A stretch of 64,000 nt of DNA from Candidatus Magasanikbacteria bacterium GW2011_GWA2_56_11 (GTDB taxonomy: Bacteria; Patescibacteriota; Patescibacteriia; Magasanikbacterales; UBA922). How positions within the stretch are numbered: the stretch's first letter is position 1; each line of letters begins with the position of its first letter. Shown piece after piece: positions 6,447 through 35,120 of the stretch. The position numbers were made by a program, and so were the translations under genes. The DNA lies in the NCBI GenBank assembly GCA_001004885.1, contig LCRX01000006.1, forward strand, positions 35,079 to 99,078, read 5' to 3'. Below the pieces are notes generated by a model, which was not told where the DNA came from, searched no databases, and saw nothing but the letters and a program-made list of their open reading frames with translations.

Positions 6447-7073
6447 ATGGAGAGCCTCGTATTAATCAGCACAATTCTGGCCGTACACGTCTTTGCTTGG
6501 TTTACTCCCGGTCCACTTTTTGTATTAATCATCAGAAATTCGTTGGTGTATTCGCGCCAGTCTGGAATCTGGACAGCGGTCGGAATAGCAATCGGCAACT
6601 TTATCCATATTACATACTCTGTGGCTGGAATGGCGTTTATCATTTCCGCGTCGCCAGTTACTTTCAGTGTCATCAAGTTTTTGGGCGTCGGTTATCTGGC
6701 GTACCTCGGAATCAAAACTTTCCTAATTAAAGCGGAAACACAAAAGGGGGCACCATGTTCTGGCGCACACAAAGATTTTTCTCCTTTCCAGACGGCAAAA
6801 ATTGGCTTCTTAGCAAACATTCTTAGTCCTAAAGCATCGCTTTTTTTTGCAAGCATATTCGCGACAGTAATAGCGTCCGGCTCTCCGTTTTGGGTTGTTA
6901 TATTTTTGTGGATCGCAATGCCACTCAATTCCTTTATCATGGCTTCCATACTTTCCATTTTTTTCACACAAAATAAAGTCAGAAGTTTTTACGCCAACTA
7001 TCAACACATGGTGAACCAACTACTCGGCGTGCTATTGCTTGCGCTGGCAATAATGATCGCGATCCACAAATAG
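6447..7073 (+). CDS. LysE/RhtB family amino-acid exporter (tandem paralog)
   Basis: 208 aa and colinear with the preceding gene (HVFAWFTPGPLF motif), which indicates a tandem duplication. Confidence 0.75.
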   Translation: MESLVLISTILAVHVFAWFTPGPLFVLIIRNSLVYSRQSGIWTAVGIAIGNFIHITYSVAGMAFIISASPVTFSVIKFLGVGYLAYLGIKTFLIKAETQKGAPCSGAHKDFSPFQTAKIGFLANILSPKASLFFASIFATVIASGSPFWVVIFLWIAMPLNSFIMASILSIFFTQNKVRSFYANYQHMVNQLLGVLLLALAIMIAIHK

Positions 7074-19926: not shown

Positions 19927-20550
19927 ATGGGAGAATTTGAAAGAACTCCACGCTCCCTAGAACAAGTATTAAGTGAACGAGGTTTGACCATTGACCCTAT
20001 CGCGGCAGTTCCTGACCATATAACTATCAGACCCCTTGCTAAGGAACTACAAGTGAAAGCTAAAATTGATGTCCTCGGAATTGCTACTGTTGTTTTCTTT
20101 GAAAATCCAGAAGAGGCGGGAAAATTTATGGCAGTCTGGTGCTTCAATGGAGAAGAAACAACGAGAAAATATGGCAATAGGATTGACGTAGAAGCAGAAG
20201 TGGCGGAGTCAATTGAACTTAATTTGCGCAGTGAAAAAGAAAAAAACGAAGCTGTTGTCGAATTATATTCATTAGTTAATAGATACGGCGGCTCTATAAA
20301 GGAAATTCGTGAATTCCCCGCAGATTTAGATGGCACGGGTTCATTTTATATGAAACCTTCAGATTTTGGTCCCGAAGGCCGTACTGTTTTAAGGATGGAT
20401 TTTCCACACGGGATAACGATTTTGTCCTTGCCAGTTTCTGGTCGCGAATTGTATGTCGGTCTTTTTAAGAACGGAAAGTATCAGGGCGGAAATGGAGATT
20501 TTTCGGTTCACGAAATAGAGTCTAATATCAGAATTCTAAACGAAGGATAA
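19927..20550 (+). CDS. hypothetical protein inserted between atpA and atpG (low GC)
   Basis: 207-aa ORF with no recognisable motif. Its composition is far more AT-rich than the surrounding operon. Confidence 0.6.
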   Translation: MGEFERTPRSLEQVLSERGLTIDPIAAVPDHITIRPLAKELQVKAKIDVLGIATVVFFENPEEAGKFMAVWCFNGEETTRKYGNRIDVEAEVAESIELNLRSEKEKNEAVVELYSLVNRYGGSIKEIREFPADLDGTGSFYMKPSDFGPEGRTVLRMDFPHGITILSLPVSGRELYVGLFKNGKYQGGNGDFSVHEIESNIRILNEG

Positions 20551-22930: not shown

Positions 22931-23269
22931 ATGAGTAGAGACCGAGAATCGAGGCCAATAAGCCTGATGAGAGAAATGTTGCGTCAGGATTACGCCCAGG
23001 GGGTTCGTATTCTGGCGCGCGACGTCCTGGCGGTGCAGAAAGAACCGGATTGGTCCGGCTATGTCGCCGAGGTGATTGAACATGCCCGGACTGGCGAAAC
23101 ACGCAATCCGGAAGTAGACGCCATTTTGGCGCGGATACTCATGAAAAAACATTATTTAACTCTCGAAGAGATAGTAGCGATATCCGATGACGTCGCCCGA
23201 GAGTGCCTTGTTCTCCTCGGGGGAGATATAGCCGATCATTATGCAGAGTCCGGACAAGCTACAATTTAA
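22931..23269 (+). CDS. hypothetical protein (112 aa) between atpD and atpC
   Basis: Its only support is that it fills a 318-bp gap inside the operon; there is no Shine-Dalgarno and no recognisable motif. Confidence 0.3.
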   Translation: MSRDRESRPISLMREMLRQDYAQGVRILARDVLAVQKEPDWSGYVAEVIEHARTGETRNPEVDAILARILMKKHYLTLEEIVAISDDVARECLVLLGGDIADHYAESGQATI

Positions 23270-23669
23270 GCTCGTTACTCCCGATGGCATCGTCTACGAC
23301 GACGCCATCGACCAGGTCAGCATCCCGACAGCCGCGGGCGAGATTACGGTTTTGCCGCGTCATATTCCGCTCGTTTCGATTATCAGCGCGGGAGAACTAA
23401 GGCTAAAAAAGGATGGCGCCGAGATACCGCTCGTAGTCTCCGGCGGTGTTCTGGAGATTCGTCCGGGCAGCCAACTTTACGTTCTGGCCGATACCGCGGA
23501 GAGAGCCGAGCATATCGACATGGAACGCGCGGAAGCGGCCCGGGCGCGCGCCGAAGAGCTTATGAAACAGAAGGAACAGATGGCCGATGTCGACTTTGCC
23601 CGCTTGCAGGCCAAAATGGAAAAAGAACTGGCCCGCCTGCGCGTCGGCAGAAAGTACCGGAAAATTTAG
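23241..23669 (+). CDS. atpC: F0F1 ATP synthase subunit epsilon
   Basis: N-terminal beta-sandwich (LVTPDGIVYDDAIDQVSIPTAAGEITVLP) plus a C-terminal helical hairpin. Confidence 0.85.
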   Translation: MQSPDKLQFKLVTPDGIVYDDAIDQVSIPTAAGEITVLPRHIPLVSIISAGELRLKKDGAEIPLVVSGGVLEIRPGSQLYVLADTAERAEHIDMERAEAARARAEELMKQKEQMADVDFARLQAKMEKELARLRVGRKYRKI

Positions 23670-23765: not shown

Positions 23766-23794
23766 TTGACATCAGACCGGGTTTCGGATATATT
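23766..23794 (+). promoter_or_regulatory. near-consensus sigma70 promoter
   Basis: TTGACA, a 17-bp spacer, then TATATT. Confidence 0.6.
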
Positions 23795-23838
23795 GTTTTG
23801 TACGTTTATCCTTATTCATCTATCTATCCTAATCGTAT

Positions 23839-23958
23839 ATGAAGTGCTCACAGTGCGCGACCATGATCGAGGGGGACATGCAGTGCCCTGATTGCGGGGT
23901 GTGCGAGCTGTGCTGCAATTGCAGCACCATGTCGTACGACAGCTCGGCCGAGGAATAG
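23839..23958 (+). CDS. 39-aa cysteine-rich peptide (8 Cys; CxxC-x9-CxxC-xx-CxxCC-x-C)
   Basis: ATG...TAG, translating to MKCSQCATMIEGDMQCPDCGVCELCCNCSTMSYDSSAEE. It sits between a consensus promoter and a clean terminator. It is not in the ORF track because it is shorter than 60 aa. Confidence 0.5.
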   Translation: MKCSQCATMIEGDMQCPDCGVCELCCNCSTMSYDSSAEE

Positions 23959-23983
23959 CTCTCGGTTTGGCATTTTATTGAAT

Positions 23984-24012
23984 CCCGCAGAGAGCTGCGG
24001 GTTTTTATTTTG
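23984..24012 (+). terminator. rho-independent terminator
   Basis: CCCGCAG-AGAG-CTGCGGG followed by TTTTTATTTT. Confidence 0.65.
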
Positions 24013-24072
24013 GGGCGCGGGGTAGAAAAAATTATCCCGTTTATCTATACTAGCAATAGCGCCGACCGGCTT

Positions 24073-25830
24073 ATGAATTACCACACGGGTTTAACGCTTA
24101 GGATTTACCTGCGGCACATCCTCCAGTACAAGTGGAGTTTTTTTGGGCTGCTCTTGTTTGTAGTGGTTGGCTCTGCCGTGGGCGTCATCATTCCTCTTTA
24201 CTATAAACAATTTTTTGATACCCTTTCCGACCCGAGCATCGCCGCCGTCCGCGAGCGTCTGGTAACTGTTCTCTTTGCCATCGCGGCTCTGCACACAGCC
24301 GAAGTAATATTGTGGCGCGGCGCCGGTTTTGTCAACAATTATTTTGAGCCGTACGTTACCGCCGCCATAGGCAATTACTGCTTCGGCTACCTGCACCGGC
24401 ATTCTTTCAGTTTTTTCAGCGGTCATTTTGTCGGCGCGCTGGTCCGGCGCGTCAACAAGTTTACGGGTTCGTTCGAACGGATTTTGGACCGATGCGTTTG
24501 GAACATCCTCCAACTGGTCGTAAACGTGGCCGTGATTTTATTCGTGCTTTCCTCACGCGACCGGCGCCTCATGGTTATTGTCCTTGTTTGGACCATTTTA
24601 TTTTCTCTTATCAACTGGTTTATCACCGGGTACAAGATGAAATACGACGTGCGCCGCAGCGAGGCCGAGACCCGGGCCAACGGCATTCTGGCGGACACGA
24701 TTACCAACAATGTCAACGTCAAGCTGTTCAACGGATACGCGCGCGAGCGCTCCCTCTACGCGCAAGCCCTCTTTGTGGTCCGGCGCTTGCGCAAGTTCAC
24801 CTGGGACCTGGACGTGATGTTTGAAACGGTCCAGGCGACGCTCATGGTGGCGCTCGAGATCGGCATTTTTTACTTCGCCATTGGCTTGTGGGAGAACGGA
24901 ACCCTCACGGTCGGCGATTTTGTGCTTATCCAGTCGTATCTTCTGACCATCTTCCTGCGGGTCTGGGATTTTGGCAAGATTATCCGCGACATTTTCACCG
25001 ATCTGGCCGATGCCGAAGATATGGCCGTTGTTTTGGATACGCCGCACGAAATCCAGGACATACCGCATGCCCGGCCGCTCGCGGTTAAAGGCGGCAACAT
25101 CCTCTTCAAGGACGTCAGCTTTTACTACCACAGCACGCGGCCGATTATCACCCATTTTAATCTGCATATCCGGCCGCACGAGCGGCTGGCGCTGGTGGGG
25201 CCCTCCGGCGCGGGCAAGTCAACACTCGTTAAACTCCTCATGCGCATGCACGATATCACGGACGGCAAAGTTTTCATTGACGAACAGGAAATCCGCAAGG
25301 TAACGCAGGAAAGCCTCTGGCAGGGTATTAGCTTTGTTCCGCAAGAGCCGATTCTGTTTCACCGGACGCTGATGGAAAACATCCGCTACGGCGCTCCGGA
25401 GGCGACCGACGACCAGGTAATGGCAGCCGCCCAAAAAGCCCACTGCCACGAGTTCATCAGGGATTTTCCCGAGGGCTACCAGACTTTTGTCGGCGAACGC
25501 GGCGTCAAACTCTCGGGCGGCGAGCGCCAACGGGTGGCGATCGCGCGCGCCATCCTGCGCAACGCCCCGATTTTGATCCTCGACGAGGCCACGTCGAGCC
25601 TCGATTCCGAGTCCGAACGCCTGATACAGGCTGCGCTCGACATGCTCATGAAGAAAAAGACGGTCATTGTCATCGCGCACCGCCTGTCGACCATCATGAA
25701 GATGGACCGCATCGTGGTCATAGACCGGGGGCAGATAACGGAAGAGGGGACCCACGCGGAGCTTATTCGCAAGCGCAGCGGCCTTTACCACAAGCTCTGG
25801 AGCTTGCAGGCCGGCGGGTTTTTGCAGTAA
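24073..25830 (+). CDS. ABC transporter, fused permease and ATPase (exporter type)
   Basis: Six N-terminal TM segments, then Walker A GPSGAGKST, the LSGGERQRVAIARA signature and Walker B ILILDEATS. The ATG at 24073 is preferred over the TTG at 24010. Confidence 0.85.
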   Translation: MNYHTGLTLRIYLRHILQYKWSFFGLLLFVVVGSAVGVIIPLYYKQFFDTLSDPSIAAVRERLVTVLFAIAALHTAEVILWRGAGFVNNYFEPYVTAAIGNYCFGYLHRHSFSFFSGHFVGALVRRVNKFTGSFERILDRCVWNILQLVVNVAVILFVLSSRDRRLMVIVLVWTILFSLINWFITGYKMKYDVRRSEAETRANGILADTITNNVNVKLFNGYARERSLYAQALFVVRRLRKFTWDLDVMFETVQATLMVALEIGIFYFAIGLWENGTLTVGDFVLIQSYLLTIFLRVWDFGKIIRDIFTDLADAEDMAVVLDTPHEIQDIPHARPLAVKGGNILFKDVSFYYHSTRPIITHFNLHIRPHERLALVGPSGAGKSTLVKLLMRMHDITDGKVFIDEQEIRKVTQESLWQGISFVPQEPILFHRTLMENIRYGAPEATDDQVMAAAQKAHCHEFIRDFPEGYQTFVGERGVKLSGGERQRVAIARAILRNAPILILDEATSSLDSESERLIQAALDMLMKKKTVIVIAHRLSTIMKMDRIVVIDRGQITEEGTHAELIRKRSGLYHKLWSLQAGGFLQ

Positions 25831-27840: not shown

Positions 27841-27869
27841 TTGACAGTCGGTGAACTGCTGAGTATTAT
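27841..27869 (+). promoter_or_regulatory. near-consensus sigma70 promoter for the complex-I-like operon
   Basis: TTGACA, a 17-bp spacer, then TATTAT, 44 nt upstream of the first ATG. Confidence 0.6.
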
Positions 27870-27912
27870 ATAGCCAACGGGATTATATTTTTGCCGCCGC
27901 CGGCGCGGATAT

Positions 27913-28434
27913 ATGCTTAAGCTGTACGCCAAGATATTCGCCACTCCCCAGACAGCGATCGGCCTGCCGGAACTCAAGGACGGGGAGGTCGAAATCGTTG
28001 GAAAAAAAATCGCGGCCAAAGTGGCCAAGCTGTTTCGCGGCTCGCTCGCTATCCGCGAGGTGGACGCCGGCTCGACCAACGCCTGCGAGCAGGAGCTGAC
28101 CGCGCTCGGGAATTCTTATTACGACGTCGAGAGATTCGGCATTCATTTCGTCGCCTCGCCCCGGCACGCCGACATGCTTATGGTTACCGGACCCGTGTCG
28201 AGAAACATGAAAGAGGCGCTCATCCGGACGTATGAGGCCACGCCAGACCCGAAAATCGTGGTGGCGGTCGGCGACGACGCCATAGACGGCGGGATTTTTA
28301 AGGGCTCCTATGCCGTCCTCGACGGGGTCCACAACGTCATTCCGGTTGATTTCCGGATTCCCGGCGATCCGCCGTCGCCCAAAACGATTTTGATCCATTT
28401 GCTTAAAATTCTCGAGATCATCGATTCCCGCTAA
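27913..28434 (+). CDS. NuoB / hydrogenase small-subunit-like protein lacking the Fe-S cluster cysteines
   Basis: The NuoB fold motifs are present but the ligands are replaced. GSTNACEQE stands in for CCxxE, VAVGDDAIDGG for GxCAxxGG, and IPGDPPSP for GCPPRP. The whole protein has a single Cys. Confidence 0.75.
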   Translation: MLKLYAKIFATPQTAIGLPELKDGEVEIVGKKIAAKVAKLFRGSLAIREVDAGSTNACEQELTALGNSYYDVERFGIHFVASPRHADMLMVTGPVSRNMKEALIRTYEATPDPKIVVAVGDDAIDGGIFKGSYAVLDGVHNVIPVDFRIPGDPPSPKTILIHLLKILEIIDSR

Positions 28435-28459
28435 GCTGTCCGGCCGGCAGCCTTCATTT

Positions 28460-30505
28460 ATGTTTACCGCGGTCAGCGCCCAATCAAGTTTTTTCCTCGC
28501 CCTCCTGTTTTTGGGGCTGGGATCGCTGGGTTCTGCTTGCCTGTGGAAAAAAGACGCGGCCGCCAATTGGTGGGGCAACCTCTGCGCGATAACGGCGTCT
28601 GTGTTTGGGCTGCTGTCGGCCATCCGCGTTCTTCTTGGCGGGGCCGCGTTTTCTTTGGCGGCCGATTCCCCGCTGGGGGCGCTGTCATTTTCCTTTACGG
28701 TTGATAAACTGTCCGCTTTTTTCATTTTTGTTATCTCGCTCATCGCCCTGCCGGCCTCCATTTATGGCCTGGGTTACGTGAAGCATTACTACGGCAGATA
28801 TTCTCCCGGCGTCCTCGGTTTTTTCTACAATCTTTTTCTGGCCGGCCTGTTTTTGGTCGTGAGCGCCGATAATGCCCTTTTTTTCCTGACAGTTTGGGAA
28901 ATCATGTCCCTGGCTTCGTACTTTTTGGTCATTTTCGAACACCGCGAGCCGGATAATATCAGCGCCGGCACGCGTTACTTTATCATGACCCACGCCGGGA
29001 CCGCTTGTATCATACTGGCGTTTCTTGTCTTGTATCGTTTTACGGGATCGTTTGAGTTTGACGTCATCAGGGAAAATTTCGCCGCTGTTCCGGCCTACGC
29101 AAAGAATATTGTTTTTTTGCTCACGCTCGCCGGTTTTGGCACCAAGGCCGGCATTATACCGCTGCACATTTGGCTGCCAAGCGCGCACCCGGCGGCGCCG
29201 ACGCACGTGTCCGCGCTCATGTCCGGGGTCATGATAAAAACCGGCATTTACATGTTTATCCGGATTTTGATTGATTTCTCGCCTGGCGCGCCGTTGTGGT
29301 GGGGGATAGCGGTTCTCCTGATTGGAGCGGCGTCATCGCTTTTCGGCGTTTTGTACGCCCTCACGGAGCATGACATTAAGAAACTGTTGGCTTATCACAG
29401 TATCGAGAATATCGGCATCATTCTTTTGGGCCTGGGCAGCGCGCTTGTTTTTTGGGCTGCCGGAGCGGAATCACTCGCCATGCTCGGTCTCATCGCGGCC
29501 TTGTTCCACACCCTCAATCACGCCGTTTTCAAGGCGCTGCTGTTTTTGGGCGCCGGCTCGGTTATCTCCCAGACGCGCACCCGCAACATGGAGGAGTACG
29601 GCGGCCTGATACGGACTATGCCTTATACCGCGGCTTTGTTTCTGACCGGTTCTCTGGCCATATCGGCTTTGCCGCCTTTCAATGGTTTTGCGAGCGAATG
29701 GCTGACTTTTCAGTCGCTTTTTAGCGGGTTCGGGTCATTCGGCCGTTCGGTGGCCGGGGTATTCGCGCTCTCGGCCGGAGCGCTGGCCTTTACTGGCGGC
29801 CTGGCCGCGGCCTGTTTTGTCAAAGCATTCGGCGCGACCTTCTTGGCGCGGCCGCGCAGTGTCGAAGCCGCGCGCTCCAGAGAGTCGGCGCCCTCCATGG
29901 TGCTGGGCATGGGCGTGCTTGCCCTGCTAACGCTCGTCATTGGAATTTTTTCCGGAGTCGTTTCCCGCGTGCTCTCGGTCGTGGTCGCCGACCGGCCGGG
30001 ATTCTCTACGGTGCCGGTTCCTGTTTCCGTCCCGGCCGCGAGCCTGAGCCTGGGCAGCGGTTTCGCCGCGATGTCTTTGCCGCTCGTCTTTGTGTCCCTG
30101 GCCGCCGTGAGCGCGCTGGTGGCTTTTTTGACGTATCTCGCGACGGCCGGCCGGCGCGTAAAAATTGGCCGCACCTGGGATTGCGGTACCGACCTCACCC
30201 CCCGCATGGAGATAACCGCGACCGGGTTTTCCCGTTCTCTCATTTCGATATTTCGGGGAATATTAAAGCCGAGCAAACAGACTACCATCGAGTATCGCGA
30301 CGCGGATAGCCGGTTTTTCCCCCAGACCAGATCGGTTAAACTGGAGATTAAAGATGTTTACAGCGCTTATTTTTACCGTCCGGTCGAGCGCCTGACAATG
30401 GCTCTGGCGGCGCAGATAAAAAAAATCCAGTGCGGCAATGTAAACGCCTATATCGTTTACTTGTTTGCCGCCCTGATAGCGCTTTTAGTCTGGGCTGTGA
30501 TCTAA
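28460..30505 (+). CDS. HyfB / NuoL / MrpA-like antiporter-type membrane subunit
   Basis: 681 aa and polytopic, with FLTVWEIMSLASYFLV and WLPSAHPAAPTHVSAL motifs. Confidence 0.8.
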   Translation: MFTAVSAQSSFFLALLFLGLGSLGSACLWKKDAAANWWGNLCAITASVFGLLSAIRVLLGGAAFSLAADSPLGALSFSFTVDKLSAFFIFVISLIALPASIYGLGYVKHYYGRYSPGVLGFFYNLFLAGLFLVVSADNALFFLTVWEIMSLASYFLVIFEHREPDNISAGTRYFIMTHAGTACIILAFLVLYRFTGSFEFDVIRENFAAVPAYAKNIVFLLTLAGFGTKAGIIPLHIWLPSAHPAAPTHVSALMSGVMIKTGIYMFIRILIDFSPGAPLWWGIAVLLIGAASSLFGVLYALTEHDIKKLLAYHSIENIGIILLGLGSALVFWAAGAESLAMLGLIAALFHTLNHAVFKALLFLGAGSVISQTRTRNMEEYGGLIRTMPYTAALFLTGSLAISALPPFNGFASEWLTFQSLFSGFGSFGRSVAGVFALSAGALAFTGGLAAACFVKAFGATFLARPRSVEAARSRESAPSMVLGMGVLALLTLVIGIFSGVVSRVLSVVVADRPGFSTVPVPVSVPAASLSLGSGFAAMSLPLVFVSLAAVSALVAFLTYLATAGRRVKIGRTWDCGTDLTPRMEITATGFSRSLISIFRGILKPSKQTTIEYRDADSRFFPQTRSVKLEIKDVYSAYFYRPVERLTMALAAQIKKIQCGNVNAYIVYLFAALIALLVWAVI

Positions 30506-30509
30506 TTTT

Positions 30510-31439
30510 ATGTCATTGTTCGGTTTGTGGTTTTTGCAACTCCTCCTTGTGCCGGCCTTGTCGCCGCTGTTTATCGGCATTGTCCGCCGGGTTAAGGCCA
30601 GGCTGCAGAATCGGGTGGGCGCGAGGGTAACCCAGCCGTACCGCGATATTCTGAAACTTTTTCGCAAGGACGAGGTCGTAAGCGCCGATGCTTCCTGGAT
30701 CTTTAGCAGCGCGCCGTATCTTATTTTTGCCGTCTCCATTCTTTTGGGAGCCAGTATCCCGCTTCTATCCGCGCACCTCACGGCTACCGTGCTCGGCGAT
30801 CTTCTGACGGTCGTCTACGTTATTGCCCTCAGCACGTTCTTTTTGGCTTTAGCCGGCATGGATACCGGCAACGCTTTCGGCGGATTCGGATCAAGTCGCG
30901 AAATGACCGTGGCCGCTTTGACCGAGGGCGGGCTTATTTTTTCGCTCCTGGCCCTGGCGTTCACGGCCCATTCGAGCAATCTGTTTGTCATCGCCGGGGC
31001 TATTTCCAGCTTGTCGCTTCTCGCTTTTACCCCGATTATTTTGGCTTTTGTGGCGTTTGTTATCGCGCTTCTCGCCGAAACCGGCCGGTTTCCCTTTGAC
31101 AATCCGGCCACCCATCTCGAGCTGACCATGATCCACGAAGCCATGATCCTCGAATATTCCGGCAAGAAACTGGCGCTCATGGAGTGGGCGGCGGCCAACA
31201 AGTTCATGCTGTTTCTCGCGCTCGGAGCGAACCTGTTTTTTCCGTGGGGGCTCGCCGCTTCGGCTTCGCCCCCGGCGCTTATTTTGGCCCTGGGAGCCTT
31301 AGTTTTCAAGCTGTTAGTCTTTTGCGTTTTGGTCGCCCTCCTGGAGTCGAGCCTGGCCAAATTTCGGTTTTTCCGCCTGCCTGATCTTTTGTTCATGTCG
31401 TTCATATTAAGCCTGATCGCGCTTTCGCTCATCGTGTAG
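30510..31439 (+). CDS. HyfC / HycD / NuoH-like membrane subunit
   Basis: 309 aa with eight TM segments and a NuoH-like loop pattern. Confidence 0.7.
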   Translation: MSLFGLWFLQLLLVPALSPLFIGIVRRVKARLQNRVGARVTQPYRDILKLFRKDEVVSADASWIFSSAPYLIFAVSILLGASIPLLSAHLTATVLGDLLTVVYVIALSTFFLALAGMDTGNAFGGFGSSREMTVAALTEGGLIFSLLALAFTAHSSNLFVIAGAISSLSLLAFTPIILAFVAFVIALLAETGRFPFDNPATHLELTMIHEAMILEYSGKKLALMEWAAANKFMLFLALGANLFFPWGLAASASPPALILALGALVFKLLVFCVLVALLESSLAKFRFFRLPDLLFMSFILSLIALSLIV

Positions 31440-31443
31440 GACT

Positions 31444-32103
31444 ATGGATTTTTTTAGCGCCCAATTTCTCTTTTTCGTCCAGACGCTGCTGTTTGCCTCG
31501 GTTATTTTCATGCACCTGTCCAAAAAAAGCGCCTCCGTTATTTTTCTTTATCAGGTTCAATCGCTTATAGTCGCCTGCCTGCTTCTCGGTTCGGCCTTAG
31601 CCGAGTCAGCGATTTTTCCGCTTTTCGTGGCCGTCGTGGTGTGCGCGGTAAAAGTAGTCATCGCGCCGCATTTCTTTCGGCGGCTCACCCGGGAGCTGCA
31701 GCTCAAATTTTCCGCCAGCACCTATTTGAGCGGTCCCTTGACGCTTATCATTCTCGCGGCCTTGACGGCGTTTACCTACTCGCACTTTTTTGCCCCTCTT
31801 TCCACTCTCAACGCGTCAAACGCCCGCGCTCTTCTTCTCGCCGCGGCGATGATGCTGGCCGCCTTGTTTTTGATCGTCAACCGCAAGGGCGCCCTCTCCC
31901 AAATGATCGGCATTTTGTCCTTGGAAAACGCCATTGTCGCTTTTGCTTTTCTTTCCGGGCTCGAACAATCGCCGGCTCTGGAGCTCGGCGTCCTGTTCGA
32001 CATTTTAATGTGGATAATCATCGCCACGGTGTTCGCGTCCATGGTTTACCGGCAATTCGGTTCTCTCGACGTGACGGCGATGAACTCTCTCAAAGAAGAA
32101 TAA
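31444..32103 (+). CDS. HyfE / NuoK-like membrane subunit
   Basis: 219 aa with a LSLENAIVAFAFL motif. Confidence 0.65.
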   Translation: MDFFSAQFLFFVQTLLFASVIFMHLSKKSASVIFLYQVQSLIVACLLLGSALAESAIFPLFVAVVVCAVKVVIAPHFFRRLTRELQLKFSASTYLSGPLTLIILAALTAFTYSHFFAPLSTLNASNARALLLAAAMMLAALFLIVNRKGALSQMIGILSLENAIVAFAFLSGLEQSPALELGVLFDILMWIIIATVFASMVYRQFGSLDVTAMNSLKEE

Positions 32104-32107
32104 ATCT

Positions 32108-33544
32108 ATGCTGCTCATCATTCTTCTCTGCGTTCCGTTCGCCGCTTCCGTCCTGTCTTGGCTGGTCAAAAAAAGGACTCTCGTTTTGGAATCTTTGGCG
32201 GCGGGCGCCTCGACAATCGAACTGGCCGCGGCGCTCTCTTTGGCGGGTTCGGTGGCGAAAAGCGGGCCGTATTCCCTGACCGATAGTTTTTCGGTTGACC
32301 CGCTGGGAGCGGTCGTCATCTTGATTTTGGCCATTATTGGCGTGGTGGCGGCGTGGTATTCGGCCGGCTACCTGCGGGCCGAAGTGGAGAAGAGCATCAT
32401 CGGTTTTCACCGGGTGCGGCAATATTTTGTTCTGCTGCATCTTTTTATTTTTGCCATGTTCTTTGCCGTCGCCACGACCAGCCCCACCCTCATGTGGATC
32501 GCCATCGAAGCCACGACGCTCTCCACCGCCTTTCTTATCAGTTTTTACAATAATGCCTCGGCCACGGAAGCGGCCTGGAAATATTTGCTTGTCAACTCGG
32601 TCGGATTACTTCTCGGATTTTTTGGCACGCTTTTGTTTTTGTCCCCGGCCGAATCAGCCGGACTCACTGATTGGAATTCGCTCTTTGCCGCCGCGGCGGG
32701 CTTTGATCCGTTTATCGCGAAGATAGCCTTCGTTTTTGTATTCATCGGATACGGCACCAAGGTCGGATGGGTGCCTATGCACACCTGGCGGCCGGACGCC
32801 TACAGCAAGGCGCCGATTCCGGTGGTGGCGCTGTTTTCGGGCTCGCTCCTGAGCGTGGCTTTTTTGGCCGTGCTCCGTTTCAAGCTGATCGCGGACGCCA
32901 GCCTGGGCGGAGATTTTTCCGCCAACATGCTCATTGGCTTCGGACTCTCTTCCATCGTCGTGGCCGCTTTCAGTATGCTCGGACAAAAAAATTATAAGCG
33001 GTTGCTCGCCTATTCGAGCATCAAGCACGCGGGTATAATCGCCCTGGGATTTGGTTTCGGGGGCGCCGCGGCCGGAGCCGCTCTCCTGCATCTTATCTAT
33101 CACGCCCTGGCCAAGTCAGCTCTGTTTTTGTCGGCGGGAAATATTTTTTTGAAATACAGTTCGACCAAGGTGGAGAACGTGCGCGGGGTGTTGTCGGCTC
33201 TGCCGGTTACCGGCGTCCTGTTTCTCGCCGGATTTGTGGCCATAATCGGCCTGCCGCCGTTCGGTTTGTTTTTTACCGAATTATCCATTCTAGCGGCCGG
33301 AATTCAGTATCATCCGGCGGTATCCGTGATTGTCCTCTTGGCGCTCGCCTTGGGGTTCATCGGCTTTCTGCGCCATGCGGTTGCCATGATGTTTGGCGAA
33401 CGCGAAAAAAGGATAGCGCCGGGCGAAGCCGGAGTTTGGACCATCGTTCCCATTATTATTCTTTTGGCCATTCTAGCGGCCGCGAGTTGGTATCTGCCGG
33501 TGTCGTTTCGGTCGTTATTGGAATCTGCCGTCTTAGCCTATTAA
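32108..33544 (+). CDS. HyfF / NuoM / NuoN-like antiporter-type membrane subunit
   Basis: 478 aa with the proton-conducting-membrane-transporter pattern (WVPMHTWRPDAYSKAP). Confidence 0.75.
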   Translation: MLLIILLCVPFAASVLSWLVKKRTLVLESLAAGASTIELAAALSLAGSVAKSGPYSLTDSFSVDPLGAVVILILAIIGVVAAWYSAGYLRAEVEKSIIGFHRVRQYFVLLHLFIFAMFFAVATTSPTLMWIAIEATTLSTAFLISFYNNASATEAAWKYLLVNSVGLLLGFFGTLLFLSPAESAGLTDWNSLFAAAAGFDPFIAKIAFVFVFIGYGTKVGWVPMHTWRPDAYSKAPIPVVALFSGSLLSVAFLAVLRFKLIADASLGGDFSANMLIGFGLSSIVVAAFSMLGQKNYKRLLAYSSIKHAGIIALGFGFGGAAAGAALLHLIYHALAKSALFLSAGNIFLKYSSTKVENVRGVLSALPVTGVLFLAGFVAIIGLPPFGLFFTELSILAAGIQYHPAVSVIVLLALALGFIGFLRHAVAMMFGEREKRIAPGEAGVWTIVPIIILLAILAAASWYLPVSFRSLLESAVLAY

Positions 33545-33548
33545 GTCT

Positions 33549-35120
33549 ATGCTTTCCAGCTCCTCTTTTGCCGCCTATATTCCTCCTGGGTTTAAGCCCA
33601 AATTCGAAGGTAACCTGGCCACCGGCGCGGTTTCTGTTTCCGAGATCGCCGGGGTGTGCCACGACCTGTACTTTACGCGTGGGCTCGAATTAAAAACTAT
33701 CACGGCTACCGACGAGCGGAACAGGGGCGGAGGTTTTAGAATTTTCTACGTATTCGGCGTGCCCAAACAAAATTTGTTTATCATCCCGTACATCGTTCTG
33801 GCCGACACCGCGGAATTTCCTTCTCTGACCAAAGATATCCACGAAGCTTCGAGCTACGAACGGCGGATTATGACGTTTTTCGGCCTCAGCCCGGCCGGCC
33901 ACCCGCATCCGCGGCCGCTTATCCTCCATGAAAATTGGCCGGCGGACGTTTTTCCGCTGCGCCAGGATTTTAATTGGCAAGAGCGTCCGGCCGCCGCGCG
34001 CGGCAATTACGAATTTTACCGGGTGGAAGGGGAGGGGATTTACGAAATTCCGGTGGGTCCGGTGCACGCGGGCATTATCGAGCCTGGCCACTTTCGTTTT
34101 AGCGTCGCCGGAGAGGAAATTATGCTGCTTGAGGCCAAACTTGGTTACAAACACAAGGGAATTGAAAAACTTTTCGAGAACCTACCGCTCGCGAGCACAT
34201 TGCGTCTGGCCGAGAGGATTTCCGGGGACACGTCGTTTACCCACGCTCTGGCTTTTTGTCAGGCGATTGAACAGCTGACTGAATTGCCGGTTCCCAGGCG
34301 CGCCGCCTACCTCCGCGTCATTTTTTCCGAGCTGGAACGGCTTGCCAACCATGCCAACGACATCGGTTTTATCATGCTCGATACGGGTTATAGTTTTGGC
34401 GGCAGCCAAGGGGCGCGGCTGCGTGAAGTTATCATGCGGTGGAACGAACGCCTAACCGGCAGCCGCTTCCTTCGCGGCGTTAATGTTTTCGGCGGCGTGG
34501 CCAAGGATATTACTCCGGAAGCGGGTAACGAACTCGAGGCCGCGCTCCAGGCGTGGCAGCGCGACTTTGACCAGGTGATCGCCATTGCCGAGGATAGCCA
34601 CTCTTTGCTCAATCGTCTCGAGGACACCGGCAAACTGGATTATCAGCTAGCCGTTGATCACGGCATTGTAGGCGTGGCCGGGCGCGCCGTTGGACTCAAG
34701 AAGGACGCGCGGCTCGATTATCCCTACGCGGCTTACGCTGAGCTTCCCCTAGAGATCGCGGTCGAGAAAGACGGCGACGTCCGGTCGAGATTTTATGTCC
34801 GCGTCAAAGAAGCGCGCTCTTCGGTCGCGCTCATTTTGGCGGCCTTGAAGAACCTGCCTAGGGGTGAGTGTTCGGTCGGGGAACAACGCGTTAAATTAGC
34901 CAGGAACCGCTGCGCTGTCGGCCTGGCCGAAGGCTGGCGAGGCGAGATTGTCTATTTTGTTATGACCGGGGATACAGGCGATCTCGCGAGAGTTGACGTT
35001 CGCGATCCGTCATTCGTCAACTGGGCCGTGCTCGGCCATGCCGGCAGAGGCAATGTCGTGCCGGATTTTCCCCTGATCAACAAGAGTTTCAATTTGTCCT
35101 ACTCGGGTAACGACTTGTAG
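33549..35120 (+). CDS. fused NuoC-NuoD / HycE-like large subunit lacking the [NiFe] cysteine ligands
   Basis: NuoC-like N-terminus (ERRIMTFFGLSPAGHPHPRPL), then NuoD-like GPVHAGIIEPGHFRF in place of RxCGxCxxxH, and C-terminal DPSFVNWAVLGH in place of DPCxxCxxH. Confidence 0.75.
   Translation: MLSSSSFAAYIPPGFKPKFEGNLATGAVSVSEIAGVCHDLYFTRGLELKTITATDERNRGGGFRIFYVFGVPKQNLFIIPYIVLADTAEFPSLTKDIHEASSYERRIMTFFGLSPAGHPHPRPLILHENWPADVFPLRQDFNWQERPAAARGNYEFYRVEGEGIYEIPVGPVHAGIIEPGHFRFSVAGEEIMLLEAKLGYKHKGIEKLFENLPLASTLRLAERISGDTSFTHALAFCQAIEQLTELPVPRRAAYLRVIFSELERLANHANDIGFIMLDTGYSFGGSQGARLREVIMRWNERLTGSRFLRGVNVFGGVAKDITPEAGNELEAALQAWQRDFDQVIAIAEDSHSLLNRLEDTGKLDYQLAVDHGIVGVAGRAVGLKKDARLDYPYAAYAELPLEIAVEKDGDVRSRFYVRVKEARSSVALILAALKNLPRGECSVGEQRVKLARNRCAVGLAEGWRGEIVYFVMTGDTGDLARVDVRDPSFVNWAVLGHAGRGNVVPDFPLINKSFNLSYSGNDL

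What the first reader, a model, noticed from the sequence alone, without database searches (positions are those of the whole stretch)
23766..24012. Stand-alone consensus promoter, 39-aa Cys-rich peptide and terminator, directly upstream of an ABC exporter
A TTGACA-17-TATATT promoter, a 39-codon ORF (MKCSQCATMIEGDMQCPDCGVCELCCNCSTMSYDSSAEE, 8 Cys; a CxxC-x9-CxxC zinc-ribbon-like knuckle plus CxxCCxC) and a clean terminator form a compact, probably highly expressed unit. A permease-ATPase ABC exporter starts 60 nt later. This could be a secreted or metal-binding peptide, a RiPP-like precursor (no modifying enzyme is visible in the window), or a small zinc-ribbon regulator. The ORF is shorter than 60 aa, so default ORF tracks miss it.
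Basis: seen in the sequence. Interest (0 to 1): 0.6.

Follow-up and report, generated by a model that had tools for sequence, protein, structure and literature searches.

The report
Unannotated eight-cysteine micro-protein gene in CPR bacteria
The 39-codon reading frame is a real, conserved gene with its own promoter and terminator; it encodes a tiny acidic peptide with eight invariant cysteines, most likely a metal-binding micro-protein that gene callers almost always miss, and nothing shows that it needs the neighbouring ABC exporter or is a modified natural product.

Summary

The ORF is a genuine gene. Six other Magasanikbacteria-like (CPR) lineages carry a 27-43-aa homologue in the same slot after the atp operon. 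Met1 and all eight Cys are invariant (M-x-C-x2-C-x7-9-C-x2-C-x2-C-x2-C-C-x-C). Non-synonymous divergence is low (pN 0.12-0.39) while synonymous sites are saturated, and Cys codons switch between TGC and TGT.

The family is almost absent from protein databases (self plus one 'hypothetical protein') and matches no Pfam or NCBIfam model.

Best reading: an autonomously transcribed, cytoplasmic, acidic metal-thiolate micro-protein. It resembles metallothioneins, mini zinc ribbons or small iron-sulfur proteins. The metal cannot be determined here.

The link to the ABC exporter is weak. Seven lineages have peptide plus ABC. Four have a Cys-rich peptide without an adjacent ABC. Seven have the ABC orthologue without a peptide.

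RiPP and leader-peptide readings fail their defining tests. There is no maturase (the only nearby radical-SAM gene is RlmN), no leader/core split and no C39 peptidase. The Cys spacing is conserved rather than just the Cys count.

Moderate interest: a new small-protein family in CPR bacteria.

The parts
23241..23669 (+). atpC (ATP synthase epsilon), last gene of the atp operon. It marks the upstream edge of the conserved slot that holds the peptide gene.
   Evidence: Pfam ATP-synt_DE_N and ATP-synt_DE. Orthologues anchor the related loci.
23766..23794 (+). Sigma-70-type promoter of the peptide gene, TTGACA-17-TATATT.
   Evidence: 11 of 12 matches. One of 4 such sites in the window against 0.38 expected. 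Promoters scoring 10-12 of 12 lie 29-44 nt upstream of the ATG in 5 of the 7 type-A members, this window included. Activity is inferred, not shown.
23801..23838 (+). Predicted 5' untranslated region of about 38 nt, pyrimidine- and AT-rich, without a Shine-Dalgarno sequence.
   Evidence: Inferred from the position of the -10 box. Lack of Shine-Dalgarno is the rule in this genome.
23839..23958 (+). Gene for the 39-aa, 8-Cys acidic micro-protein (type A: M-x-C-x2-C-x9-C-x2-C-x2-C-x2-C-C-x-C plus a variable acidic tail).
   Evidence: ORF. Called as a gene on one ENA contig. Six homologues in other lineages have Met1 and all 8 Cys invariant. pN is 0.12-0.39 with synonymous sites saturated, and Cys codons alternate between TGC and TGT.
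23984..24011 (+). Intrinsic terminator: 7-bp stem with 6 G-C pairs, 4-nt loop, then a T run.
   Evidence: Read by eye in the sequences, hairpin-plus-T-run terminators follow the stop codon in L008, L010, L024, L002 and L023; the scripted scan returned hairpins for L008, L002, L023 and L005 only.
24023..24051 (+). Weak promoter-like site, TAGAAA-17-TATACT, between the terminator and the ABC gene. It suggests the ABC gene has its own transcription start.
   Evidence: 9 of 12 matches. By eye, TGgTATAAT and TGgTATACT extended -10 boxes sit at the same place in L024 and L010. Inferred only.
24073..25830 (+). Neighbouring ABC-B half-transporter (permease + ATPase, 585 aa). It is context and is not shown to be part of the unit.
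   Evidence: Pfam ABC_membrane and ABC_tran. Below every NCBIfam equivalog cut-off and without a C39 peptidase domain. About 60% identical orthologues occur across Patescibacteria. The closest solved half-transporters are Atm1, ABCB6 and NaAtm1.

Best explanation
The unit is an independent, monocistronic gene for a cytoplasmic micro-protein. RNA polymerase starts at a near-consensus promoter (about 23801). A roughly 38-nt leader without a Shine-Dalgarno sequence is translated from ATG 23839, and transcription stops at the hairpin at 23984-24011. The product is a very acidic 39-aa peptide. Its functional part is the 26-residue N-terminal core, in which eight invariant cysteine thiolates wrap around metal ions. 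Two options are equally open: two tetrathiolate sites, or one small metal-thiolate or iron-sulfur cluster. The variable acidic tail is dispensable, because the shortest family members end right after the last Cys. The likely role is metal buffering, storage or hand-over, like a metallothionein or a mini rubredoxin/ferredoxin. Shown: the signals are present, the frame is conserved under purifying selection, all 8 Cys are invariant, and the gene occurs as a stand-alone unit. Inferred: transcription strength, translation, metal binding, the identity of the metal, and the cellular role.
For: The frame and all eight Cys are conserved in 7 lineages whose neighbouring ABC proteins are only 49-68% identical to the window's. 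pN is 0.12-0.39 against saturated pS, and Cys codons alternate TGC/TGT, so selection acts on the amino acids and not on the RNA. Five of the 7 type-A genes have an own promoter scoring 10-12 of 12, and most type-A genes have an own terminator. L008 carries promoter, peptide and terminator with no ABC gene after it. The motif contains rubredoxin/zinc-ribbon-type knuckles (CxxC ... CPxCG) plus CxxCCxC. Cys content is 19-30% in the type-A peptides, aromatic residues are few, and there is no signal peptide or hydrophobic segment. The 27-28-aa members lack the tail. The same module occurs once or twice per protein in three tandem small genes of an unrelated bacterium, L078; one of them scores 38 bits against the family profile, with 0 of 500 shuffles reaching that score. 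This is the behaviour of an autonomous mini-domain. Weak profile similarity points only to metal-binding modules: ZZ zinc finger of CBP/p300 at E=0.011, RZ zinc finger and DUF2089 zinc ribbon at E about 0.06-0.09. Other tiny Cys-rich peptides fill the same slot in sister lineages: 25 aa with 8 Cys in L005, L006 and L018, and 42 aa with 12 Cys in L150.
Against: There are no expression or metal-binding data. No significant match exists to any metallothionein, zinc-ribbon, rubredoxin or ferredoxin model. The AlphaFold model is unreliable, with pLDDT 60.6. The strong acidity differs from classical Lys-rich metallothioneins. In L011, and probably L023, the peptide and ABC genes appear co-transcribed, which hints at a shared function. 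Homology between type A and the 25-aa and 42-aa peptides is not statistically demonstrable: 17-71 of 500 composition-matched shuffles score as well.
Confidence: 0.6

Rival explanations
1. The peptide works with the adjacent ABC-B exporter. It chelates a metal, or carries thiol or Fe-S equivalents, and the complex or the peptide itself is pumped out. This would be a gene-encoded analogue of the phytochelatin/HMT1 or glutathione/Atm1 pairs.
For: The peptide lies directly upstream of the ABC orthologue in 6 of 7 type-A lineages and in L150. In the three loci where a gene is inserted after atpC (L002, L010, L023), the peptide stays next to the ABC gene. No terminator separates the two genes in L011, and only a weak one does in L023. 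The closest solved half-transporters are Atm1, ABCB6 and NaAtm1 at 307-321 bits.
Against: Cys-rich peptides occur in 4 lineages with no ABC gene next to them (L008 type A; L005, L006, L018 type B). Seven ABC orthologues have no peptide (L003, L004, L013, L148, L152, L153, L156). The ABC gene is a widespread core gene of Patescibacteria. A terminator and a separate -10 box lie between the genes in the window, L024 and L010. The margin of Atm1-type structures over Sav1866 (290 bits) is small. The atp-ABC gene order is conserved by itself, so adjacency can be plain synteny.
Confidence: 0.2
2. It is a small zinc-finger-type regulator or adaptor that binds a protein partner, as haloarchaeal CPxCG micro-proteins such as Brz do.
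For: CxxC and CPxCG knuckles are present in 5 of 7 type-A members. There is weak ZZ-finger similarity. Small CPxCG zinc-finger proteins with regulatory roles are known (PMC2253796).
Against: The net charge is about -3 to -6 in type A, with almost no basic residues, so nucleic-acid binding is unlikely. Outside the Cys residues hardly any surface residue is conserved. No partner gene is conserved next to it.
Confidence: 0.1
3. It is a cis-acting leader peptide: translation of the Cys-rich ORF controls the terminator and thereby ABC expression. This would resemble the BmrB-bmrCD attenuation system or the polycysteine short ORFs of mycobacteria.
For: The layout is promoter, short ORF, terminator, ABC gene. 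Precedents are PMC4191407 (BmrB/bmrCD) and 10.1101/834739 (polycysteine attenuators).
Against: The spacing of all 8 Cys and Met1 is invariant, not just the Cys richness, and the Cys are never in runs. Purifying selection acts on the peptide. In L008 the unit stands alone with no ABC gene. No antiterminator alternative appears in the fold, and the fold is not significantly more stable than shuffles (z = -1.9). A separate promoter-like box precedes the ABC gene. The distance from stop codon to hairpin, read in the sequences, varies from about 5 to about 50 nt.
Confidence: 0.05
4. It is a RiPP precursor (sactipeptide, ranthipeptide or SCIFF-like) that is modified and exported by the ABC transporter.
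For: It is a Cys-rich short peptide next to an ABC exporter. A Radical_SAM gene follows the ABC gene in L150 and L152.
Against: That radical-SAM protein is the rRNA methyltransferase RlmN (257-266 bits to TIGR00048), and L152 has it without any peptide. No ORF in the window has a CxxxCxxC motif, and all annotated neighbours are housekeeping genes. The Cys motif starts at residue 3, so there is no leader, and the tail is dispensable, so there is no follower. The peptides match no NCBIfam precursor family. The ABC protein lacks a C39 peptidase domain.
Confidence: 0.04

Closest known systems
Metallothioneins, especially very short ones such as the 25-aa Neurospora crassa Cu-metallothionein and bacterial SmtA/MymT (comparison from my own knowledge, not tested)
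   Same: Very small size, 19-30% Cys, CxxC/CC/CxC motifs, few aromatic residues, no His. The companion peptides in the same slot (L005 type, 32% Cys; L150, 12 Cys in 42 aa) look even more metallothionein-like.
   Different: No sequence match to any Pfam metallothionein model. Strongly acidic rather than Lys-rich. A fixed 8-Cys pattern with zinc-ribbon-type knuckles. Metal binding is untested.
Zinc-ribbon and cross-brace zinc fingers (ZZ domain of CBP/p300, rubredoxin-type knuckles, haloarchaeal CPxCG micro-proteins such as Brz, PMC2253796)
   Same: CxxC-x9-C-P-x-C-G knuckle pair. The best, though weak, profile hit is the ZZ finger at E=0.011, with three Cys pairs aligned. It is a stand-alone micro-protein like the haloarchaeal ones.
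   Different: The core is only 26 residues. The third and fourth 'pairs' are the unusual CxxCCxC. The peptide is acidic with no basic surface. It is below threshold for every zinc-finger model.
Clostridial-type [4Fe-4S] ferredoxins
   Same: Small, acidic, 8 Cys, with a central CxxCxxC. The 25-aa slot-mates give ferredoxins as their top PDB matches (CVACGVC against CISCGAC).
   Different: E-values of 4-6 are not significant. The spacing to the fourth Cys is x2, or CC, and not x3-C-P. At 25-43 aa the peptide is half the size of the smallest 2x[4Fe-4S] ferredoxin.
Leader-peptide attenuators of ABC exporters and Cys-responsive short ORFs (BmrB/bmrCD, PMC4191407; polycysteine short ORFs, 10.1101/834739)
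   Same: A short ORF followed by a terminator upstream of an ABC-B exporter; rich in Cys codons.
   Different: The peptide sequence and Cys spacing are conserved, stand-alone copies exist, no antiterminator is seen, and the Cys codons are not consecutive.
SCIFF/ranthipeptide RiPP precursors
   Same: A short Cys-rich peptide close to an ABC exporter.
   Different: No radical-SAM/SPASM maturase, no leader region, and no match to the precursor models.

Membership tests
Metallothionein (operational class) | Low molecular weight and Cys content of roughly 15-30% arranged in CxC, CxxC or CC motifs | tested here: met
   Type-A peptides are 27-43 aa with 8 Cys (19-30%) in CxxC and CCxC motifs. Slot-mates are 25 aa with 8 Cys, and 42 aa with 12 Cys.
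Metallothionein (operational class) | Scarcity of aromatic residues and His | tested here: met
   0-2 aromatic residues in the 26-residue core of each type-A member; the only His in any type-A member lies in the tail of L008.
Metallothionein (operational class) | Sequence match to a described metallothionein family | tested here: not met
   No Pfam or NCBIfam metallothionein model matches even at E<=10 or E<=1.
Metallothionein (operational class) | Binds several metal ions in thiolate clusters | not testable with these tools
   Needs metal-binding experiments on the peptide.
Zinc ribbon / ZZ-type zinc finger | Two or more CxxC knuckles at zinc-ribbon spacing | tested here: met
   CxxC-x7-9-CxxC in all 7 type-A members, and C-P-x-C in 5 of them.
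Zinc ribbon / ZZ-type zinc finger | Significant match to a family model or solved structure | tested here: not met
   Best Pfam hits are at E=0.064 and 0.086 in single members. The PDB profile hit to the ZZ finger is at E=0.011, 18.8 bits.
Zinc ribbon / ZZ-type zinc finger | Confidently predicted fold | tested here: inconclusive
   AlphaFold2 mean pLDDT 60.6 and pTM 0.30 with a 2-sequence alignment. No fold search was attempted on so poor a model.
RiPP precursor (SCIFF / ranthipeptide / sactipeptide) | Adjacent radical-SAM/SPASM or other maturase | tested here: not met
   No CxxxCxxC ORF in the window. Neighbours are housekeeping genes. The radical-SAM gene in L150 and L152 is RlmN.
RiPP precursor (SCIFF / ranthipeptide / sactipeptide) | Leader (or follower) plus core organisation | tested here: not met
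   The Cys motif starts at residue 3, and the C-terminal tail is absent in L002 and L011.
RiPP precursor (SCIFF / ranthipeptide / sactipeptide) | Match to a precursor family model; exporter with C39 peptidase | tested here: not met
   No NCBIfam hit for any peptide. The ABC protein has only ABC_membrane and ABC_tran domains.
Leader-peptide transcription attenuator (BmrB type / polycysteine short ORF) | Always in cis with the regulated gene | tested here: not met
   L008 has the complete unit with no ABC gene downstream. Promoter-like -10 boxes follow the terminator in the window, L024 and L010.
Leader-peptide transcription attenuator (BmrB type / polycysteine short ORF) | Mutually exclusive terminator and antiterminator structures that overlap the ORF | tested here: inconclusive
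   The minimum-energy and centroid folds keep the terminator and show no competing helix, z = -1.9. No dedicated search was made in the homologues.
Leader-peptide transcription attenuator (BmrB type / polycysteine short ORF) | Only the regulatory codons matter, typically in runs | tested here: not met
   The exact spacing of 8 separate Cys and Met1 is invariant, with pN well below pS.
[4Fe-4S] ferredoxin | C-x2-C-x2-C-x3-C-P cluster motif | tested here: not met
   The spacing is C-x2-C-x2-C-x2-C-C with no Pro. PDB ferredoxin hits for the slot-mates are at E = 4-6.

The most novel reading that the evidence does not exclude
The peptide is a gene-encoded counterpart of phytochelatin or glutathione in bacteria that make neither. 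The 8-Cys acidic peptide captures a metal, or an Fe-S or thiol cargo, and the neighbouring Atm1/HMT1-like ABC-B half-transporter expels the complex. Together they would form a minimal two-gene metal-detoxification or thiol-export system specific to a CPR lineage.
Probability: 0.15. Interest if true: 0.7.

Novelty: new variant of a known kind. Interest (0 to 1): 0.5.

Why it matters
CPR/Patescibacteria have tiny genomes in which many genes have no assigned function, and their small proteins are essentially uncharted. Here a conserved gene with a near-consensus promoter is present in at least seven lineages. Yet only two of its products, the window's own and one named 'hypothetical protein', appear among 5.8 billion predicted protein clusters. 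This is a concrete example of what default gene calling misses.

If the peptide binds metal, it would be, to my knowledge, the first metallothionein-like or mini metal-cluster protein described for this radiation. It would also be one of the shortest natural 8-Cys metal sites, and easy to make synthetically and test. In a proteome this poor in cysteine, an abundant peptide that is 20-30% Cys would also be a notable sink for sulfur and metal.

Tried and rejected
1. Protein searches with the peptide. The 40-aa padded query found only itself. A 7-member alignment found only itself and P0122. A full HMMER pass over 1.84 billion representatives found only the same two, plus an unrelated repetitive 287-aa protein. 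The family is therefore not visible in predicted proteomes, and all other members came from six-frame scans of fetched loci.

Only L078 was informative. I should have excluded simple repeats. The phyletic spread is therefore under-sampled.

4. The AlphaFold2 model was too poor (pLDDT 60.6) for a fold search.

5. Rfam gave nothing at gathering thresholds in the window, and only a chance miRNA hit (E=0.19) in the region.

6. I considered and rejected a chance ORF or untranslated leader, a RiPP precursor, and a signal-peptide-dependent secreted peptide (no hydrophobic N-terminus).

7. I tried to unite the 25-aa (L005, L006, L018) and 42-aa (L150) slot-mates with type A by profile score. The result was not significant against composition-matched shuffles, so they are reported as analogous and possibly homologous.

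8. A bioRxiv paper on insect metallothioneins mentions a Magasanikbacteria PSI-BLAST hit. It concerns an unspecified Cys-rich motif and could not be tied to this peptide.

Full report
OBSERVATION. TTGACA-17-TATATT lies at 23766-23794 (11 of 12 matches). An ATG ORF at 23839-23958 encodes MKCSQCATMIEGDMQCPDCGVCELCCNCSTMSYDSSAEE. A 7-bp hairpin with 6 G-C pairs at 23984-24001 is followed by a T run. An ABC-B half-transporter gene starts at ATG 24073. The longer 606-aa TTG version called by one annotation is not supported by the 586-587-aa homologues.

Promoter matches of this quality are rare in the window: 4 on both strands against 0.38 expected. The three on the + strand, this one included, fall between the ORFs of the gene map. 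The upstream gene is atpC, the last gene of an atp operon. The organism is a CPR/Patescibacteria bacterium of the Candidatus Magasanikbacteria type, judging by the titles of the closest genome records. Most of its genes have no Shine-Dalgarno sequence (9 of 50 have one), so the lack of one before this ORF is not an argument against translation.

IT IS A REAL GENE. Protein databases were almost silent. The peptide found only itself. A 7-member profile added one 40-aa 'hypothetical protein' from a Patescibacteria assembly. A full HMMER pass over 1.84 billion representatives added nothing related.

I therefore fetched loci through the neighbouring genes, atpC and ABC homologues, and scanned them in six frames. 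Six further lineages carry a homologous ORF:
- L023 1762-1893, 43 aa
- L024 1236-1358, 40 aa (the same peptide as P0122 and loci L025-L027)
- L008 6546-6662, 38 aa
- L010 7206-7325, 39 aa
- L002 8190-8273, 27 aa
- L011 4697-4783, 28 aa
.

Identity to the window peptide is 36-62%. Met1 and all eight Cys are invariant, which gives the motif M-x-C-x2-C-x7-9-C-x2-C-x2-C-x2-C-C-x-C. Among the four closest members, non-synonymous divergence is 0.12-0.39 while synonymous sites are saturated. Each Cys position switches freely between TGC and TGT. The constraint is therefore on the protein and not on an RNA structure or a leader sequence. L001 and L022 are the same organism as the window (0-1 mismatches) and do not count as independent.

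ANATOMY IS CONSERVED. Five of the seven type-A genes have a promoter scoring 10-12 of 12, ending 29-44 nt before the ATG: TTGACA-16-TATAAT in L024, TTGACA-16-TATACT in L023, TTGAAA-17-TATAAT in L002, and TTGACG-17-TATACT in L008. Read by eye in the sequences, L011 has an extended -10 box, and hairpin-plus-T-run terminators follow the stop codon in L008, L010, L024, L002 and L023. The scripted scan returned hairpins for L008, L002 and L023 among these. The C-terminal tail is variable, acidic, and absent in the 27-28-aa forms. The functional unit is therefore the 26-residue Cys core.

CONTEXT. The constant feature is a slot just downstream of the atp operon.
- Window, L024 and L011: atpC-peptide-ABC.
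- L023, L010 and L002: one unrelated gene lies between atpC and the peptide. These are an unknown 323-aa protein, an HhH-GPD glycosylase and a SulP permease.
- L008: the complete promoter-peptide-terminator unit follows atpC, but no ABC gene follows it. An FMN reductase and a UvrD-type helicase-nuclease come next.
- L003, L004, L013, L148, L152, L153 and a Buchananbacteria locus (L156): the ABC orthologue has no peptide.

The same slot in three other lineages (L005, L006, L018) holds a 25-aa peptide, MGCECDI.PCV.CG.C..CGC.C.E. It also has 8 Cys and its own TTGCAT-17-TATACT promoter, and it lies next to a Cas4-like nuclease or RsmE, not an ABC gene. L150 holds a 42-aa, 12-Cys peptide before its ABC gene. 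These share the central CxxCxxCxxC with type A. However, their score against the type-A profile is not better than that of composition-matched shuffles (17-71 of 500), so homology is not demonstrated.

An unrelated bacterium that does use Shine-Dalgarno sequences (L078) has three tandem small genes, each with one or two copies of the module. One of these proteins contains two exact CxxC-x9-CxxCxxCxxCCxC modules and scores 38 bits against the type-A profile, with 0 of 500 shuffles as good. That is what one expects of an autonomous mini-domain.

WHAT IT IS NOT.

RiPP precursor. No ORF in the window has the radical-SAM CxxxCxxC motif. Every annotated neighbour across the window is a housekeeping gene: tRNA synthetases, ComEC, the atp operon, a nuo/Mrp-like cluster, BipA, a UvrD-like helicase, MreBCD, PBP2 and GreA. 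The Radical_SAM gene that follows the ABC gene in L150 and L152 is RlmN (257-266 bits to TIGR00048), and L152 has it without any peptide. The Cys motif begins at residue 3, which leaves no room for a leader. No NCBIfam precursor model matches. The ABC protein has no C39 peptidase domain.

Leader peptide or attenuator, as for BmrB/bmrCD (PMC4191407) or the mycobacterial polycysteine short ORFs (10.1101/834739). The exact Cys spacing is conserved rather than a run of Cys codons. A stand-alone copy exists in L008. The predicted fold keeps the terminator and offers no competing helix (z = -1.9). Promoter-like -10 boxes lie between the terminator and the ABC gene in the window, L024 and L010.

Structured RNA. 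There is no Rfam match.

WHAT IT MOST LIKELY IS. The best reading is a cytoplasmic metal-thiolate micro-protein. Eight invariant Cys fall within 26 residues. Type A has rubredoxin/zinc-ribbon-type knuckles (CxxC ... C-P-x-C-G) followed by CxxCCxC. There is no hydrophobic segment or signal peptide, almost no aromatic or basic residues, and the net charge is strongly negative.

The only similarities, all weak, are to metal sites:
- the ZZ zinc finger of CBP/p300, E=0.011, with three Cys pairs aligned
- RZ-type and DUF2089 zinc ribbons, E about 0.06-0.09
- for the 25-aa slot-mates, clostridial ferredoxins, E = 4-6.

None reaches significance, and no metallothionein, zinc-finger or ferredoxin model claims the peptide. 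It is therefore not a member of any described family. It works like the general class of small Cys-rich metal binders. These tools cannot decide whether it holds two tetrathiolate sites (Zn or Fe), a metallothionein-type cluster (Zn, Cd or Cu) or an Fe-S cluster. The AlphaFold model was unreliable (pLDDT 60.6).

LINK TO THE ABC EXPORTER. The link is possible but unproven. In favour:
- the genes are adjacent in 7 lineages
- the peptide stays with the ABC gene when another gene is inserted after atpC (3 of 3 cases)
- the two genes appear co-transcribed in L011 and perhaps in L023
- the closest solved half-transporters are Atm1, ABCB6 and NaAtm1, which move thiol-metal or Fe-S related cargo (307-321 bits against 290 for Sav1866).

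Against:
- there are four Cys-rich peptides without an adjacent ABC gene, and seven ABC orthologues without a peptide
- the ABC gene is a core gene with about 60% identical orthologues throughout Patescibacteria
- the atp-ABC gene order is conserved on its own, so adjacency may be inherited synteny.

I give coupling about 0.2. The specific reading of a gene-encoded phytochelatin plus an HMT1/Atm1-like pump gets about 0.15.

NOVELTY AND VERDICT. The kind is known: small Cys-rich metal-binding peptides and micro zinc fingers. The family, its fixed 8-Cys pattern, its restriction (as far as sampled) to a CPR lineage and its near-total absence from annotation are new. I found no paper describing it. 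Interest is moderate at 0.5: a clean and easily testable new micro-protein family, without evidence for an unusual mechanism.

LIMITS. There are no expression or biochemical data. Sampling rests on 20 atpC-anchored genomes and a handful of ABC-anchored contigs, because the one metagenome DNA scan was wasted on microsatellites. The relation between type A and the other slot peptides is unresolved.

Noticed in passing
window 19927-20550 and 22967-23269: Two ORFs with no Pfam hit are embedded in the atp operon: 207 aa between atpA and atpG (also no NCBIfam hit), and 100 aa between atpD and atpC. The first lies in a low-GC patch (0.39-0.45 against about 0.58 around it). Relatives L025 and L026 have atpA-atpG and atpD-atpC directly adjacent, and L152 instead has a 23S_rRNA_IVP-family gene between atpG and atpD. 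These look like small lineage-specific insertions into the operon.
   Followed up: partly
window 27841-35120: A complex-I/Mrp-like gene cluster (Oxidored_q6, Proton_antipo_M, NADHdh, Complex1_30kDa, Complex1_49kDa) lies behind a strong promoter-like site, TTGACA-17-TATTAT at 27841-27869. The NuoB-like protein (27913-28434) has a single Cys, so it cannot bind the usual N2 iron-sulfur cluster. This is unusual equipment for a CPR bacterium.
   Followed up: no
window, all genes: Only 9 of 50 gene starts have a Shine-Dalgarno-like sequence. Most starts are preceded by AT-rich or T-rich sequence, so the genome relies on initiation that does not depend on Shine-Dalgarno pairing.
   Followed up: partly
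L078 1060-1751: Three tandem small genes (84, about 60 and 94 aa) in an unrelated bacterium that uses Shine-Dalgarno sequences (172-kb contig), upstream of a 404-aa ORF that looks like xseA (not checked). Each carries one or two copies of the module, two of them exact CxxC-x9-CxxCxxCxxCCxC copies in one protein. None has a Pfam hit.
   Followed up: partly
L005 6514-6591, L006 7921-7998, L018 5859-5936, L150 2179-2307: Other tiny Cys-rich peptide genes occupy the same post-atp slot: 25 aa with 8 Cys (MGCECDI.PCV.CG.C..CGC.C.E), and 42 aa with 12 Cys. Each of the 25-aa genes has its own TTGCAT-17-TATACT promoter. They are not next to an ABC gene, except in L150.
   Followed up: partly
L150 2046-2500, L151 176-307, L152 2315-2500: In L150 the peptide gene appears flanked by direct repeats of roughly 55 nt (gacaacatacRtggatSaatatacaa...ttgtgt...), judged by eye. 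All three loci share a conserved non-coding stretch (gtaacattttggctaattttRcgtctt) plus a hairpin and T run just upstream of the ABC gene. This could be a small RNA or a leader element.
   Followed up: no
L008 about 6690-6840: An imperfect inverted repeat of roughly 35 nt (catgcgaattacgaaaaatacgaaattacgaaa ... tttcgtactttcgtatttttcgtagttcgcatg), read by eye, follows the peptide terminator. After it comes a stretch with long ORFs on both strands that looks G+C-rich, at the position where relatives have the ABC gene. This could be the scar of a replacement.
   Followed up: no
window 24017-24040: A second hairpin (9 pairs) overlaps the -35 region of the putative ABC promoter, directly after the peptide terminator.
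   Followed up: no
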